UHGV virus genome: UHGV-0171730
Origin: a virus
DNA length: 39,822 nucleotides
Strand: one strand, 5' to 3'
The notes below the pieces were generated by a model. It did no database searches. It was not told the DNA's origin and saw nothing but the letters and a program-made list of their open reading frames with translations. Numbering within the stretch: the first letter of the stretch is position 1; every line of letters begins with the position of its first letter. A program made the position numbers and the translations under genes. Positions 3,418-7,670 of the stretch are shown here, piece by piece.

Positions 3418-3560
3418 ATATCACCTTAAATAGTGGATTGCGGTAGTAAAGATTGTGCCTGTCTTTTAACCACATCAGGCTCGGTGGTTCTCGTGTACCC
3501 CTACAACGAGAAATCGGATAAACTCTATTCACCCCTACAGAGAGCAAAAGAGAAACGCCG

Positions 3561-4142
3561 ATGAACAACTCATGGTGGCAGGAACTAATGCATTTTTTCC
3601 TGCAAGGAATGACACTTAAACAGTTGATTCATATGCTAATCATCCTGATCATATTGATTATTGTTATGCCGGTAAGCGTAAAAGAATGGATAAACCTGCA
3701 TAATCCAGAAATCCTTCCTCATTACTGGATGTATTACATCCTGTTGTTTTGCGTTAGCTATGTGCTTAACGGCGTTGTTAATTCCGCTTATCACGCTGTG
3801 ACTGAAAGAATTGAGGTATTCGCTGCTCAGAAGCGCAAATCTAAAGAAGAAAAATATGTGCAAGATTTGTTTGATTCGTTAACTCTTGGAGAAAGAGCGT
3901 ATTTGGCATTCGCTGTAGCCGCTAATAACCAGCTACAAACGGAAAAGGGCGCTCATGAATCAATTTCATTGCTCAAAAAAGGACTCCTCGTTCGAAGGCC
4001 TCCTGCTGTTGGATATCCTGATACCGACCGTTTCGTTATCCCTGAAAGCTATAGACATGAGTGCTACATTAGGTTTGCCGGGAAGGCAGACAGCCTTATG
4101 GATGAACTTATCGCTCAGGATAAGCATGGCAAAAACAAGTAA
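3561..4142 (+). CDS. sieB: superinfection exclusion protein B-like membrane protein (193 aa)
   Basis: Two strongly hydrophobic segments (LIHMLIILIILIIVMPV; YILLFCVSYVLNGVV); size and location next to N match lambda/P22 sieB. Confidence 0.6.
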   Translation: MNNSWWQELMHFFLQGMTLKQLIHMLIILIILIIVMPVSVKEWINLHNPEILPHYWMYYILLFCVSYVLNGVVNSAYHAVTERIEVFAAQKRKSKEEKYVQDLFDSLTLGERAYLAFAVAANNQLQTEKGAHESISLLKKGLLVRRPPAVGYPDTDRFVIPESYRHECYIRFAGKADSLMDELIAQDKHGKNK

Positions 4143-4158
4143 TTAGCAAATGAATTTA

Positions 4159-4431
4159 TCATCTCGCCGTCAGTTGTTTTGATTTCCGGTAGCCTGCCGC
4201 GTAAAGAGCTACGTTCGGAAGACAAGTTGAACCTTCATATTTTCTGGTCAACGTTGTCAGAGTTATCACTTCTGCTCTCATTGCTGGTTTGAGCTTGCAT
4301 TGCAAGACCACTCGTGAAGGGGTTGGCCTGTGTAGCTTGTCGGAGCTGATCGCCTCCTGACTTTGCAGATTTGCGCGACGAGCTCTACGGCGAGAAGCTG
4401 CGGTGCCTTTAAATTCTGTTTTTCTGGACAT
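4159..4431 (-). CDS. N: N-type transcription antiterminator (90 aa)
   Basis: Arg-rich motif TAASRRRARRANLQ near N-terminus; C-terminus LPNVALYAAGYRKSKQLTAR resembles P22 gp24; ATG 4431 preceded by GGGAGG at 5 nt; ORF-track start 4503 rejected. Confidence 0.8.
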   Translation of the reverse strand: MSRKTEFKGTAASRRRARRANLQSQEAISSDKLHRPTPSRVVLQCKLKPAMRAEVITLTTLTRKYEGSTCLPNVALYAAGYRKSKQLTAR

Positions 4432-4529
4432 GGATTCCTCCCGAATAAACTTTGGCGATGCAATCTCGAAGCTCCTCCTGAGACGGTTGCTTCGGCATTG
4501 CATCCCACAGCTTATGTGGTTGGGTGATC

Positions 4530-4574
4530 TGGCTTTTCAGCCACGTAGTCGAGAGTCGACGTTGTTTAAAGAGC
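4530..4574 (-). promoter_or_regulatory. nutL (boxA-like GCTCTTTAAACAACG plus hairpins)
   Basis: Minus-strand GCTCTTTAAACAACG (4560-4574), hairpin GTCGA-CTC-TCGAC (4548-4560), hairpin UGGCU-GAAA-AGCCA (4530-4543); same arrangement at nutR. Confidence 0.5.
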
Positions 4575-4599
4575 CTGCCAGTCTGTTCCATTTGGCTTC

Positions 4600-4700
4600 C
4601 AGCGTCCTGCTGACGGTTAAATAGTACGATATGTACTTTACAAGATCAATACAATTTGTTGTAAGTTGGCGTGGTTTTTTATAACGCTTTGTATTTAATA
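4600..4700 (-). promoter_or_regulatory. pL/oL region with operator-like palindrome
   Basis: AGTACGATATGTACT at 4623-4637 resembles AGTACATATTGTATT at oR (6941-6955); candidate TTGATC-17-TACTAT promoter on minus strand. Confidence 0.4.
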
Positions 4701-4835
4701 GTGTTGTTTTTTAGCGTGGATGTATTGCCTCGGCGATGTAAGGAGAGATCAGAATTGCGTGGTTTAGTGGGTTGCATCTATTTATTTTTCAATAAATATA
4801 ATTGGTTATGTGTTTTTAGGTGGGCGAACGTGAGG

Positions 4836-4862
4836 CAAAGAAAACCCGGCGCTGAGGCCGGG
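4836..4862 (-). terminator. rho-independent terminator ending the cI operon (timm-like)
   Basis: Hairpin CCCGGC-GCTGAG-GCCGGG at 4845-4862 followed on the minus strand by UUUUCUUUG, just after the stop at 4868. Confidence 0.5.
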
Positions 4863-4867
4863 TTGTA

Positions 4868-5620
4868 TTATGCTGCAAGTCTCTTAACCCAAGTCTCTCT
4901 TTTGGAGAATGGTAGAACTTGGCTTGATTCATGGAAGAGTAAGGAGAGTTGTTGCATTTGATCACCAATTGCTTCGCTGTCTATAACAACAAATCTGTTG
5001 TTATACTCCTCACTTGAAGCTTTAAGATCAATTAGTTTCCCAAGCAATGAGTAAGCACTATTCCAGCTTCCTCCGTGTTTCACGCTTGATGTAAAAACGT
5101 ATTTAGGTATGTCGGTTTTTATTGTTACAGGGACGGTAATTTGATGTCCACTCAAGCCATATACGTTTTCACGAAGAGAAAGTGCGTCTCTAAGCTCTGT
5201 GTGATATAGATAATCAATAACCATACTTTCAAACTTTTCAGCTTGAACTGGCTGATACCAGTCTAACGACAAAGTTGATGCGAGTATACCAGCTCTAATT
5301 ATGTTCGATGTAATCGCACCGACATCCTTTTCTGTTGCCCAAGCAATGATTTCTCCTCGAGCATTGAGTTCTGCGCCTTCTTTAAGCAGTAATTGTCGTA
5401 TCTCATCAAGTCGTTTTTTGGTAAGCGAGATCCCTCTTGCCTCCATATTCATTAAGGCATCGCATCTGTCACTAACTAAATACCTACCATTGACTTCACG
5501 GATAAAGGCACCGACATGCTCTCCATCATCACAGTAAGTGAATGGACTGATAATTCTCAAGGTCTTGCCTATTGGATGGCATTCGAAACCTAGTTGTGAG
5601 ATCACTGTTGAGCACATCAT
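4868..5620 (-). CDS. hypothetical protein, 250 aa, second gene after cI (rexB slot)
   Basis: ATG start overlaps upstream stop (ATGATG/TGA at 5615-5620); AT-rich; no motif recognised; no obvious TM segments. Confidence 0.6.
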   Translation of the reverse strand: MMCSTVISQLGFECHPIGKTLRIISPFTYCDDGEHVGAFIREVNGRYLVSDRCDALMNMEARGISLTKKRLDEIRQLLLKEGAELNARGEIIAWATEKDVGAITSNIIRAGILASTLSLDWYQPVQAEKFESMVIDYLYHTELRDALSLRENVYGLSGHQITVPVTIKTDIPKYVFTSSVKHGGSWNSAYSLLGKLIDLKASSEEYNNRFVVIDSEAIGDQMQQLSLLFHESSQVLPFSKRETWVKRLAA

Positions 5621-6174
5621 ATTCCAAACCCCATTTGCCCCGACTCATCTTCAAGCGGTAAAGGTATTCTCCCAGAGTAAGTTATGTTCAGATGTTTACA
5701 GAAGTAATTCCAATACCCTACCAGGTCATCTGGGTTTATGTCATCTTCGATTGGAAACGCTATTCTATCACTATAGTATCCAGCTTCTTCATAGTATACA
5801 TGGTAGTGAGCACCGTAAATGATATCTTGGTACTTCGGATGATCGACCTTGTAACTATTCGTGTGTTTGTCAAAGTGATAGGTATCTACCGCGAAAACCC
5901 TCTTGTTATGATAGAAAGCAATAATATTTATTTTAGGGTAAGAAATCGGGTCATCAGGTTCTGAATCCTGATCTGGTTTCCATTTCAGTTCAAACTTTAG
6001 CCCTTGTATAGGTATACAATCCTCATCCAAGGGGATGATATGGGCTTGTAGCCACATATCAGAGCGACTTGGTTTCTGTTTCCATTTAACGCCAGAAAAG
6101 TTAACTATTTTTTTACAATAAAGTACTTTATCAACTTCTACTTGGCTTGGCTGATAATCATCTATTTTTGCCAA
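5617..6174 (-). CDS. hypothetical protein, 185 aa, first gene after cI (rexA slot); apparent TTG start
   Basis: ORF begins at TTG (6172-6174) immediately after an in-frame TAA; next in-frame ATG is codon 40; Tyr/His-rich segment YHFDKHTNSYKVDHPKYQDIIYGAHYHVYYEE; AT-rich. Confidence 0.5.
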   Translation of the reverse strand: MAKIDDYQPSQVEVDKVLYCKKIVNFSGVKWKQKPSRSDMWLQAHIIPLDEDCIPIQGLKFELKWKPDQDSEPDDPISYPKINIIAFYHNKRVFAVDTYHFDKHTNSYKVDHPKYQDIIYGAHYHVYYEEAGYYSDRIAFPIEDDINPDDLVGYWNYFCKHLNITYSGRIPLPLEDESGQMGFGI

Positions 6175-6213
6175 TGTTTACCGCCCTGTAAATTGTAGAT
6201 AAAAGTGGTTTCA

Positions 6214-6867
6214 TCACCCAAACGTCTCTTCAGGCCATTGGCTGGCGATAACTTTCCCCACAACGGAACAACTCTCATTGCATGGGATCATTGGGTATTG
6301 TGGGTTTAGTGGCTGTAGAAACACCTGACCGCTATCCCTGATCAGTTTCTTGAAGGTAAATTCATCACCACCAAGTCTGGCTATGCAGAAATCGCCGGGC
6401 TCAACAGCTTGCTCAGGGTCAACCAGAATTAACATCCCGTCAGGAAAGCTGGGTTTGGAACCTGTTGGTGCGGTCATTGAGTTACCTTCAACCTCAAGCC
6501 AGAATGCAGAGTCACTGGCTTTTTTGGTTGTGCTTACCAATCTCTCCGCATCGCCTTTGGTAAAGGTTCTGAGTTCTGGAGAGAACATCCCAGCCTGAAC
6601 ATGAGAAAAAACAGGGTACTCATATTGTTTTTTAACTGGGGCCGATGAGTATTCGCCAACAGGTGAAAATGTCCCGTCGTGGTTGAATGATATGTTATCA
6701 ATACCAAGGTATTTAAACACCACACCAATATCACTAAGAGATGGATGACGAGATCCGCGCAACCAGTGTCCAATCCCACCCTGCGTCATACCTAGCTCTT
6801 CGGCTAACTTCTCTTGAGTTATGCCGAGCTCTTTCATTCTGGATCTAGCCAGTTCATACCATTTCAT
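6214..6867 (-). CDS. cI: CI repressor (HTH DNA-binding domain plus LexA/S24-like autocleavage domain)
   Basis: [23 protein letters not shown]; C-terminal half from [12 protein letters not shown] to [10 protein letters not shown] matches lambda cI as remembered; start 6867 chosen for AAGGA spacing (alternative 6873; ORF-track 6915 rejected). Confidence 0.85.
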
Positions 6868-6984
6868 TTTCATGTCCTTATTATTACGCTCTGTACTGGA
6901 ACCATCCATGCACAATGTGTATTTTTACTTGTATTCGCAAAGTACATATTGTATTTTTTTATTCGTGTTTACTATGGAGGGCAT
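6868..6984. promoter_or_regulatory. oR / pRM / pR divergent control region
   Basis: Intergenic between divergent cI and cro; operator-like AGTACATATTGTATT at 6941-6955; AT-rich -10-like elements; GGAGG RBS at 6976-6980. Confidence 0.5.
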
Positions 6985-7256: not shown

Positions 7257-7341
7257 GTTCCAAGATATCTGACCAACTAAGGCCATATGCGTTTCCACGC
7301 ATACCTTTCAACTAACTATTCACTATTGGAAATCTTAAGAA

Positions 7342-7638
7342 ATGGAAAGAACAAGTTACAGCAAACTATCACAGCGTGACGTTGATCGCGCAGAAACAGA
7401 TTTACTTATCAATCTGTCAGCTATTACCCAGCGCGGTCTGGCAAAGATGATTGGCTGTCATGAATCGAAGATAAGCAGAACGGACTGGAGATTTATTGCT
7501 TCGGTCTTGTGTGCTTTCGGAATGGCATCAGACATCAGTCCGATTAGCAGGGCTTTTAAGTATGCGCTTGATGGACTCACCAATAAAAAACGCCCGGCGG
7601 CAACCGAGCGTTCTGAACAAATCCAGATGGAATTCTGA
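7342..7638 (+). CDS. cII: CII transcriptional activator
   Basis: C-terminus LTNKKRPAATERSEQIQMEF matches lambda CII as remembered; N-terminal DNA-binding part differs. Confidence 0.85.
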   Translation: MERTSYSKLSQRDVDRAETDLLINLSAITQRGLAKMIGCHESKISRTDWRFIASVLCAFGMASDISPISRAFKYALDGLTNKKRPAATERSEQIQMEF

Positions 7639-7661
7639 GGTCATTACTGGATCAATCCACA
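7585..7661 (-). ncRNA. oop: OOP-like antisense RNA (approximate extent)
   Basis: Minus-strand terminator (stem CGCUCGG/CCGGGCG plus U6) at 7585-7612 in the cII 3' end, as for lambda tO; 5' end inferred from the lambda 77-nt OOP length. Confidence 0.4.
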
Positions 7662-7670
7662 GGAGTCATT

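What the first reader, a model, noticed from the sequence alone, without database searches (positions are those of the whole stretch)
4868..6174. Two unknown, translationally coupled genes in the rexAB slot directly downstream of cI: candidate lysogen-expressed anti-phage cassette
Two ORFs (185 aa and 250 aa) follow cI on the same strand, 39 nt after its stop, and end at a hairpin terminator (4845-4862) just before pL/N. That is exactly where lambda carries rexA-rexB. The second gene's ATG overlaps the first gene's TGA (ATGATG, 5615-5620), indicating coupled translation. The cassette is visibly more AT-rich than the flanking cI and N sequence, suggesting separate acquisition. Neither product shows a motif I recognise (no Walker box, no membrane helices unlike RexB, no HTH), and the first gene appears to start at TTG right after an in-frame stop. 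Genes co-transcribed with the repressor in a lysogen are typically superinfection-exclusion or abortive-infection systems, so this is my best candidate for an undescribed defence system.
Basis: partly seen in the sequence, partly recalled or inferred. Interest (0 to 1): 0.85.

Follow-up and report, generated by a model that had tools for sequence, protein, structure and literature searches.

The report
Untested two-gene cassette behind prophage repressor
A lambda-like E. coli prophage carries, exactly where phage lambda keeps its rexAB exclusion genes, a conserved pair of coupled genes of unknown function (one with a fold seen in no solved structure, one with a nuclease-like fold) that is most likely an untested anti-phage module found in about 5% of complete E. 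coli genomes, including Nissle 1917.

Summary
On the minus strand, cI (6214-6915) is followed 39 nt later by gene A (5617-6174, 185 aa, TTG start). Gene B (4868-5620, 250 aa) overlaps A by ATGA. A terminator (4843-4864) precedes pL/N. This is the most AT-rich 1.3 kb of the window.

The pair is real and conserved. A sits directly upstream of B in 80/80 viral loci, in 7 other genera, and in relatives only ~22-25% identical. A repressor gene lies directly, or one small gene, upstream in nearly all of them. Gene A never starts with ATG.

Neither protein is related to RexA or RexB, and neither has membrane helices. B combines a DUF1828 domain (type III chaperone-like fold) with a restriction-endonuclease-like domain that lacks the canonical catalytic motif. 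A is confidently modelled but matches no solved structure.

Both proteins weakly match PADLOC's predicted, unvalidated candidate PDC-M24. I found no experimental paper on them.

Best reading: a lysogen-expressed two-protein anti-phage module. The defence role is moderately likely; the mechanism is inferred. It is a good, testable candidate rather than a demonstrated system.

The parts
6214..6915 (-). cI-type repressor (HTH_3 + Peptidase_S24), first gene of the lysogenic operon. GenBank and RefSeq annotate a 231-aa product starting at 6909.
   Evidence: Pfam Peptidase_S24 E 1e-28 and HTH_3 E 2e-10. Annotated cI / LexA family in identical phages and in Nissle 1917.
6175..6213 (-). 39-nt cI-A spacer with no terminator. 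It contains the in-frame TAA (6180-6178) that forces the TTG start.
   Evidence: Sequence. The terminator scan finds nothing here.
5617..6174 (-). Gene A, 185 aa, TTG start. PHROG 2017; divergent DUF6978-like. Confident model with no solved structural relative. Invariant residues: K22, W31, R92, D97, N106, G121, H123, H125, F158, P173. Conserved disordered C-terminal tail (SGQxxhydrophobic).
4868..5620 (-). Gene B, 250 aa; its ATG overlaps A's TGA. PHROG 1960. N-terminal DUF1828 domain (type III secretion chaperone / YbjN-like fold, about residues 1-120). C-terminal restriction-endonuclease-like alpha-beta-beta-beta-alpha-beta domain (about residues 125-250, weakly DUF1829-like).
4843..4864 (-). 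Intrinsic terminator ending the cI-A-B transcript, equivalent to tM of 933W and tImm of lambda.
   Evidence: 8-bp stem, 6 G-C pairs, T-run. 98% identical to the 933W feature annotated 'tM; putative terminator for pM transcript'.
4159..4503 (-). Antiterminator N, first gene of the pL operon and the downstream boundary of the slot. The annotated N is 4159-4431.
   Evidence: Pfam N_peptide E 1e-32; annotation in PhiR57_1.
4620..4700 (-). Presumed oL/pL region. It holds an operator-like 14-mer (about 4625-4638) that is shared with the cI-cro intergenic region (about 6940-6953).
   Evidence: Assignment is by inference only.

Best explanation
The cassette is an accessory ('moron') two-protein module that the prophage expresses together with its repressor in the lysogen. 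It most likely protects the lysogen against other phages, by superinfection exclusion or abortive infection.

Proposed working:
- cI, A and B are read as one transcript, from pRM (and from pRE during establishment) to the tM-like terminator.
- A is translated inefficiently from a conserved non-ATG start. B is made only by coupled re-initiation at the ATGA overlap. The two soluble proteins are therefore produced at low, fixed stoichiometry and act as a complex.
- B is the likely effector. Its C-terminal restriction-endonuclease-fold domain would act on nucleic acid. Its N-terminal chaperone-like DUF1828 domain would bind a partner peptide.
- My candidate for that partner peptide is the conserved, disordered C-terminal tail of A.
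- A has a fold unlike any solved structure and an invariant Asp/His/Asn/His/His cluster. It would act as the sensor or regulator that holds B in check until an infecting phage is detected. Alternatively, A could be a second catalytic subunit.

Shown by tool results: gene structure, coupling, conservation of the pair, position behind repressors, the folds, and the absence of Rex homology.

Inferred, not shown: co-transcription, complex formation, which protein is sensor and which is effector, nuclease activity, and the defence phenotype itself.

My rough split of probability: some anti-phage role about 0.55-0.6; B as a nucleic-acid-targeting effector controlled by A about 0.3.
For: Position:
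- The pair lies between cI and a terminator shared with 933W's tM. There is no intervening terminator and only a 39-nt gap.
- The same slot holds rexAB in lambda (established knowledge) and stk in 933W.

Cargo hotspot:
- The same cI allele (99-100% identical) is followed by variant 1 (this window), by variant 2 (A 40% and B 51% identical; L011), or by an unrelated 173-aa gene in Stx2 phage 1717.
- Base composition is an outlier.

Conservation of the pair:
- A lies directly upstream of B in 80/80 viral loci, with a 4-nt or 13-nt overlap.
- The pair occurs in Izhakiella, Yersinia, Providencia, Xenorhabdus, Pantoea and Thorsellia and in a Pseudomonas phage.
- Nine distant A representatives were looked up. 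Seven have a full-length downstream partner, six of them carrying a DUF1828 hit; in the other two the contig cuts the downstream gene.
- A repressor-type gene lies directly, or one small gene, upstream in all 80 viral loci. The same holds even for the most distant A representative, P0093.

Link to defence:
- B matches PADLOC PDC-M24B over its full length (E 4.7e-10).
- A matches PDC-M24A (E 4.8e-4 for the window protein; 1.5e-6 for family members).
- PDC systems were defined by being embedded in BREX, DISARM or type I RM loci (10.1101/2024.01.29.577857).

Folds:

Expression design:
- A's start codon is TTG or GTG in 79/79 interpretable loci.

Selection and prevalence:
- Both genes are under purifying selection.
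- Variant 1 is in 239 and variant 2 in 61 of 5426 complete E. coli genomes.
Against: - No experimental data of any kind were found for these proteins.
- PDC-M24 is itself only a prediction. The A match to it is weak and partial (residues 104-163), so PADLOC would probably not call this locus.
- B's nuclease-like domain lacks the canonical D...(D/E)xK triad. Across distant homologs only S157, G158, W186 and D198 are invariant, with H159 and R209 nearly so and an acidic residue at position 214. K173 is not conserved. The domain may therefore be non-catalytic or use an unusual active site.
- Complex formation and the tail-docking idea are untested.
- Transcription from pRM is inferred from layout only.
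- A position behind a repressor is also compatible with addiction modules or other lysogenic-conversion functions.
Confidence: 0.5

Rival explanations
1. Addiction or toxin-antitoxin-like module. B (or A) is toxic and the partner neutralises it. The pair stabilises the prophage, or the immunity region, in the host rather than sensing phages. Any phage protection would be incidental.
For: The layout is a two-gene overlapping operon with the smaller gene first and coupled translation at fixed stoichiometry. The weak start codon is conserved, which fits a need to keep levels low. B has a nuclease-like fold. Distant homologs sit beside resolvases and in mobile elements rather than next to repressors.
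Against: A is large for an antitoxin (185 aa) and has no DNA-binding domain. No match to any toxin or antitoxin family appeared in Pfam or NCBIfam, and none at informative significance in PADLOC (the only PADLOC hits are to the candidate PDC-M24). The pair has no evident promoter of its own: promoter-like hits are no more frequent than in shuffled sequence. Many toxin-antitoxin systems are themselves phage defences, so this rival partly overlaps the main explanation.
Confidence: 0.15
2. A lysogenic-conversion or phage life-cycle function unrelated to competing phages. Examples: modulating host physiology or stress responses in the lysogen, or tuning the lysis-lysogeny decision or induction (nucleic-acid processing linked to the repressor circuit).
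For: The link to repressor genes is very tight and evolutionarily deep. It spans many repressor families, including short HTH-only repressors, and it persists in relatives only about 22% identical. That could reflect a functional tie to the immunity circuit rather than mere co-expression. Other morons in lambdoid phages serve host fitness (established knowledge).
Against: The cassette is dispensable and interchangeable. Phages with an identical cI carry a different variant or an unrelated gene, which argues against a core regulatory role. Some distant relatives are not next to repressors. There is the PDC-M24 link to RM/BREX-embedded genes.
Confidence: 0.2
3. A counter-defence (anti-restriction or anti-immune) pair that is expressed early from pRE or by read-through and helps the phage establish itself.
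For: In lambda, genes in this region are also transcribed from pRE during establishment (established knowledge). The chaperone-like DUF1828 domain could bind and block a host protein.
Against: Counter-defence genes are normally in the early lytic operons, not in the operon that stays on in the lysogen. Relatives occur embedded in defence loci (PDC definition), which fits defence rather than anti-defence. No match to a known anti-defence family was seen among the PHROG, Pfam or PADLOC hits.
Confidence: 0.05

Closest known systems
Lambda RexA-RexB exclusion system
   Same: Same genomic slot and expression logic: two genes directly after cI, on the same strand, ending at the immunity-region terminator before pL/N. 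They are therefore expected to be made in the lysogen. It is a two-component design.
   Different: No sequence relationship: no RexA or RexB Pfam hit even at E <= 1. RexB is a polytopic membrane protein, whereas A and B have no hydrophobic segment. B has a chaperone-like plus nuclease-like architecture instead of an ion-channel-type effector.
PADLOC phage defence candidate PDC-M24 (Payne et al., bioRxiv 10.1101/2024.01.29.577857)
   Same: A two-gene A+B system. The window's B matches PDC-M24B over its full length (E 4.7e-10). The window's A matches PDC-M24A, and only those models match. The gene order is the same.
   Different: The A match is weak and covers only residues 104-163, so this is a divergent branch that PADLOC thresholds would probably miss. 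PDC-M24 is a computational candidate (guilt by embedding in BREX, DISARM or type I RM loci) with no published phenotype that I could find. Here the context is a prophage immunity region.
Other cargo genes encoded next to prophage repressors (BstA of Salmonella phage BTP1; Stk of 933W)
   Same: Cargo in the repressor-proximal slot of lambdoid or P22-like prophages. The 933W stk operon ends at the same tM terminator sequence as this cassette. BstA is a prophage-encoded abortive-infection protein (PMC8585504, title and abstract listed). That stk excludes other phages is from my own recollection, not from a paper read here.
   Different: There is no homology. BstA and Stk are single effectors (a DNA-binding abortive-infection protein and a Ser/Thr kinase). 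Here there are two coupled proteins with different folds.
Restriction-endonuclease-fold (PD-(D/E)xK) immune effectors such as Can2/Card1, and type II enzymes such as PspGI, NgoMIV and Cfr10I
   Different: The canonical catalytic residues are absent. There is no CARF or other known sensor domain; the N-terminal domain is DUF1828, chaperone-like. No sequence-level match to any PDB chain was found.

Membership tests
RexAB (lambda) | RexA homolog present | tested here: not met
   Pfam scan of A and B at E <= 1 gives only DUF6978 and DUF1828. The PADLOC scan gives only PDC-M24.
RexAB (lambda) | RexB-type polytopic inner-membrane protein | tested here: not met
   The maximum 19-residue Kyte-Doolittle hydropathy is 0.45 for A and 1.19 for B, so there is no transmembrane segment. 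Both AF2 models are globular and soluble.
RexAB (lambda) | Located directly downstream of cI, on the same strand, before the immunity terminator and pL/N | tested here: met
PADLOC PDC-M24 | Gene B matches a PDC-M24B model | tested here: met
   PDLC04540: E 4.7e-10, residues 2-249 against profile positions 4-254 of 256.
PADLOC PDC-M24 | An adjacent gene A matches a PDC-M24A model | tested here: inconclusive
   PDLC04536: E 4.8e-4, residues 104-163 only. The best E-value among 26 family members is 1.5e-6. PADLOC's own thresholds could not be applied here.
PADLOC PDC-M24 | Demonstrated anti-phage activity | not testable with these tools
   No paper reporting a test was found. PDCs are described as candidates.
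Pfam DUF1828 (PF08861) | Score above the gathering threshold | tested here: met
   33.5 bits against a cut-off of 22, residues 26-110 of B. Distant partners also match.
Pfam DUF6978 (PF22398) | Score above the gathering threshold | tested here: not met
   22 bits against a cut-off of 29.6 for the window's A protein. 18 of 26 family members match at E <= 1 (best 2e-6). A is best described as a divergent relative.
PD-(D/E)xK nuclease superfamily | Alpha-beta-beta-beta-alpha-beta core fold | tested here: met
PD-(D/E)xK nuclease superfamily | Catalytic D ... (D/E)xK motif on strands 2 and 3 | tested here: not met
   The strand-2 position holds S157-G158-H159. Strand 3 has K173 only in close relatives. 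The conserved acidic residues are D198 (following helix) and D/E214 (after strand 4). A variant active site is possible but unproven.
Type II toxin-antitoxin | Antitoxin with a DNA-binding domain and an autoregulated promoter; toxin from a known family | tested here: not met
   A has no HTH, RHH or AbrB hit, and neither protein hits a toxin family. Promoter-like sites are not enriched. Toxicity itself cannot be tested here.

The most novel reading that the evidence does not exclude
A/B is a mechanistically new two-component abortive-infection or exclusion system that lambdoid and other temperate phages carry behind their repressor. A is a sensor protein with a fold not seen in any solved structure and an invariant Asp/His/Asn/His/His site. 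Through its conserved C-terminal tail it controls B, an effector that joins a type III chaperone-like domain to a restriction-endonuclease fold with a non-canonical (His/Asp-based) active site. The system would contribute to phage resistance in about 5% of E. coli, including Nissle 1917, ATCC 25922 and (variant 2) the O104:H4 outbreak lineage.
Probability: 0.3. Interest if true: 0.7.

Novelty: new variant of a known kind. Interest (0 to 1): 0.55.

Why it matters
If the pair is a defence system, it adds a widespread and compact module to the known prophage-encoded immunity repertoire. It is 1.3 kb, made of two soluble proteins, and one of those proteins has no solved structural relative.

It would also help explain phage resistance in strains that matter in practice: the probiotic Nissle 1917, the reference strain ATCC 25922, ExPEC and APEC lineages, and (variant 2) O104:H4. 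That bears on phage therapy and on Stx-phage transfer.

It would give the first phenotype for PADLOC's PDC-M24 candidate and for the DUF1828/DUF1829/DUF6978 families.

The data also document the cI-tM slot of lambdoid phages as a cargo hotspot. The same repressor allele carries at least three different cargoes, so the slot can be mined for further systems.

The claim is directly testable with phages that are already isolated and deposited (ev207, ev017, PhiR57_1, PhiR63_2).

Tried and rejected
- **Homology to RexA/RexB or any characterised protein.** Nothing in Pfam, NCBIfam, PHROGs (unknown-function families only) or PDB sequences.
- **A cupin-like or His-Me reading of A's G-x-H-x-H motif.** I considered it from the sequence, but no fold match supports it. 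Rejected as unsupported.
- **Canonical PD-(D/E)xK motif in B.** I searched the alignment with distant homologs and did not find it. An S-x-K variant (S179-V-K181) is not conserved.
- **Literature.** The terms DUF1828, DUF6978, PDC-M24, WP_000968518, WP_001062368 and the PHROG ids returned no relevant paper. A search for the PhiR57/PhiR63 source paper found nothing.
- **The Nissle 1917 'phage repressor' resistance paper.** It turned out to concern the cII-family ORF, not this cassette.
- **A known RNA in the region.** No Rfam hit between 3000 and 8000.
- **An internal promoter for A or B.** Promoter-like sites are no more frequent than in shuffled sequence.

Full report
**1. The observation**

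On the minus strand, the cI-type repressor (6214-6915; Pfam HTH_3 plus Peptidase_S24) ends with TGA at 6216-6214.

Thirty-nine nucleotides later, gene A begins at TTG 6174. An in-frame TAA two codons upstream leaves no other start before Met39. The N-terminal 38 residues are conserved in homologs, with K22 and W31 invariant, so the TTG start is real.

A's TGA (5619-5617) overlaps B's ATG (5620-5618). B ends at 4868. Three nucleotides further on is a G+C-rich hairpin with a T-run (4864-4843). This hairpin is 98% identical to the feature annotated 'tM, putative terminator for pM transcript' in phage 933W. Next come an operator-like region and N.

No terminator-like site lies between cI and A. 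The cassette has 39.6% G+C, the lowest 0.3% of all 1307-nt windows in the window. For comparison, cI has 46.3% and N has 49.5%. Neither protein has a hydrophobic segment long enough for a membrane helix.

**2. The genes are real, and they are a pair**

Identical DNA occurs in the isolated phages ev207, ev017, PhiR57_1 and PhiR63_2 and in an Stx1a phage. It also occurs in 239 of 5426 complete E. coli genomes, including Nissle 1917 (a prophage next to icd), ATCC 25922 and ATCC 11775.

A second allele (A 40% identical, B 51% identical) occupies the same position in 61 further genomes, among them the O104:H4 outbreak lineage.

Homologs down to about 47% (B) and 41% (A) identity occur in Salmonella, Yersinia, Klebsiella, Providencia, Xenorhabdus, Pantoea, Izhakiella, Thorsellia and Aeromonas.

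- In all 80 IMG/VR loci retrieved with B, A lies immediately upstream. The overlap is 4 nt in 64 loci and 13 nt in 16.
- Non-synonymous divergence is 0.14-0.37 while synonymous sites are saturated, which shows purifying selection on both genes.
- The A family is small. A profile search of 1.84 billion representative proteins found only 21 at E <= 1e-3.
- Nine of those distant representatives (about 22-37% identical) were looked up. Seven have a full-length downstream partner of 231-253 aa. Six of these partners carry a DUF1828 hit. Five overlap A by 4 nt; in L109/L110 the two genes abut or share one base, and in L018 they are 59 nt apart. The other two representatives have a downstream gene cut off by the contig end.
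- A Pseudomonas phage carries the pair too; its A gene is unannotated.
- Gene A starts with TTG or GTG in 79 of 79 interpretable viral loci and never with ATG. This suggests that low, coupled expression is selected.

**3. Position**

In all 80 viral loci a repressor-type gene lies upstream on the same strand. My five cI queries detected it in 66 loci. In the remaining 14 the upstream ORF is an S24-type or short HTH-only repressor-like protein.

The repressors range from 31% to 100% identity to my queries, so many immunity types are involved. These include lambda-type cI with lambda Cro.

The most distant A representative (P0093) and the Pseudomonas phage also show repressor, one small gene, then A and B. 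Other distant relatives sit next to resolvases or inside a primase-bearing mobile element.

The slot is a cargo hotspot. The very same cI allele (99-100% identical) precedes:

- variant 1 of the pair (this window);
- variant 2 of the pair (L011);
- a single unrelated 173-aa gene in Stx2 phage 1717 / VT2-Sakai.

Phage 933W carries L0084-L0083-stk-L0081 before the same terminator.

**4. What the proteins are**

*Protein B.* B has a Pfam DUF1828 domain at residues 26-110 (33.5 bits, above threshold). Its AlphaFold model has pLDDT 81 and pTM 0.67 and shows two domains.

Two distant homologs give weak DUF1829 hits on this half (E 0.012-0.12).

The canonical D...(D/E)xK triad is absent. With distant partners aligned, the invariant and near-invariant residues are:

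| Domain | Invariant | Nearly invariant or conserved in character |
|---|---|---|
| N-terminal | P26, D32, D51, G89, E90 | - |
| C-terminal | W121, F130, V134, S157, G158, W186, D198 | H159, R209; acidic residue at 214 |

The effector assignment is therefore plausible but not secure.

A has a sub-threshold DUF6978 match, which is shared by 18 of 26 family members.

Residues invariant across the family are K22, W31, R92, D97, N106, G121, H123, H125, F158 and P173, with H104 nearly invariant. This looks like a metal-binding or catalytic cluster.

The last nine residues are predicted to be disordered, yet they carry a conserved [S/G]-G-Q-x-x-hydrophobic motif. This is the kind of linear motif that chaperone-like domains bind. 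I offer this link as an inference only.

**5. Link to defence**

In PADLOC-DB the only matches are to the two components of one candidate system:

- PDC-M24B for B: E 4.7e-10, full length.
- PDC-M24A for A: E 4.8e-4 for the window protein, 1.5e-6 within the family.

PDC systems are computational candidates. They were chosen because members were found embedded in BREX, DISARM or type I RM loci. The source paper tested other candidates, not this one (10.1101/2024.01.29.577857).

I found no paper mentioning DUF1828 or DUF6978 in a defence context, PDC-M24, or the RefSeq accessions.

The 2018 study of Nissle 1917 resistance to lambdoid phages cloned a gene it called the 'phage repressor'. Its primers map to 7296-7665, which is the cII-family ORF (7342-7638). 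The cassette was therefore not tested there.

**6. Interpretation**

The best-supported reading is a lysogen-expressed, two-protein anti-phage module. It is analogous in position to rexAB but unrelated to it.

- A and B are made at low, fixed ratio and probably act as a complex.
- B is the likely nucleic-acid-directed effector.
- A is the likely sensor or regulator.

I put about 0.55-0.6 on some anti-phage role and about 0.3 on this specific division of labour.

The rivals are an addiction or toxin-antitoxin-like role (0.15), a life-cycle or host-physiology role tied to the immunity circuit (0.2), and counter-defence (0.05). The deep and repeated association with repressor genes is striking. 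It is the main reason to keep the life-cycle rival alive. The interchangeability of the cargo behind an identical cI argues against that rival.

**7. Novelty and score**

The kind of system is well known: prophage cargo genes in the immunity region that protect the lysogen. The components are not. One fold has no solved relative, and the other is a chaperone-like plus variant nuclease-fold protein.

The family is catalogued only as unknown-function PHROGs 2017 and 1960, and it sits at the margin of an unvalidated PADLOC candidate. I rate it a new variant of a known kind, with interest 0.55.

A specialist would not be astonished, because new defence systems in prophage hotspots are now found routinely. 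Even so, this is a clean, prevalent candidate that can be tested immediately in well-known strains.

Noticed in passing
window 7296-7665 (ORF 7342-7638, + strand): The 'phage repressor (pr, EcN_1294)' that Bury et al. 2018 (PMC5987069) cloned from Nissle 1917 prophage 3, and reported to reduce lambda and Stx-phage plating about 200-fold, maps by its published primers to the cII-family ORF of this phage type. It does not map to the cI repressor.
   Followed up: partly
window 4843-6915; L011, L107 (FJ188381), L106 (AF125520): The cI-to-tM slot is a cargo hotspot. The same cI allele (99-100% identical) is followed by A/B variant 1, by A/B variant 2, or by an unrelated 173-aa gene (VT2-Sap23-like). 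933W carries L0084-L0083-stk-L0081 before the same terminator sequence.
   Followed up: partly
window 6172-6174 and 79 viral loci (L020-L099): Gene A never uses ATG as its start codon: TTG in 27 loci and GTG in 52. A and B always overlap, by 4 or 13 nt. This looks like selection for weak, coupled translation.
   Followed up: yes
L105 (Pseudomonas phage VB_PaD_phPA-G, PP083311) about 3480-4004: An unannotated ORF is a clear gene-A homolog (MAKQK...GQMGFDV). It overlaps the start of the annotated B homolog (4001-4756). It lies downstream of the CI-like repressor and one extra gene.
   Followed up: partly
window 3561-4142 (+ strand): A sieB superinfection-exclusion gene (Pfam SieB E 2.5e-22; PHROG 1301) lies just beyond N, on the opposite strand to the pL operon. 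This prophage therefore already carries one recognised exclusion function next to the cassette.
   Followed up: no
L010 (NZ_JBHSON010000334.1, 518 bp, 'Actinomadura rugatobispora'): A 518-bp contig in an actinomycete assembly encodes an A/B junction whose B part is 82% identical to the enterobacterial type. It is most likely contamination of that assembly.
   Followed up: no
window about 4625-4638 and about 6940-6953: A 14-nt operator-like sequence (AAGTACATAT[C/T]GTA, in reverse orientation at the left site) is shared between the region upstream of N and the cI-cro intergenic region. This fits oL and oR of this immunity type, with the cassette lying between them.
   Followed up: partly
gene A residues 170-185 (window 5617-5667): The C-terminal tail of A is predicted to be disordered (pLDDT below 50 for residues 177-185). 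It nevertheless keeps a [S/G]-G-Q-x-x-hydrophobic motif even in relatives only about 22% identical. It may be a docking peptide. Part of the conservation could instead reflect the ribosome-binding site of B.
   Followed up: partly
3' end of cI, window about 6214-6300: A 2026 paper (PMC12803456) reports a protective sRNA, svsR, encoded at the 3' end of cI in the lambdoid prophage NC-SV of E. coli NC101. I could not determine whether NC-SV is this phage type. Rfam finds no known RNA between 3000 and 8000.
   Followed up: partly
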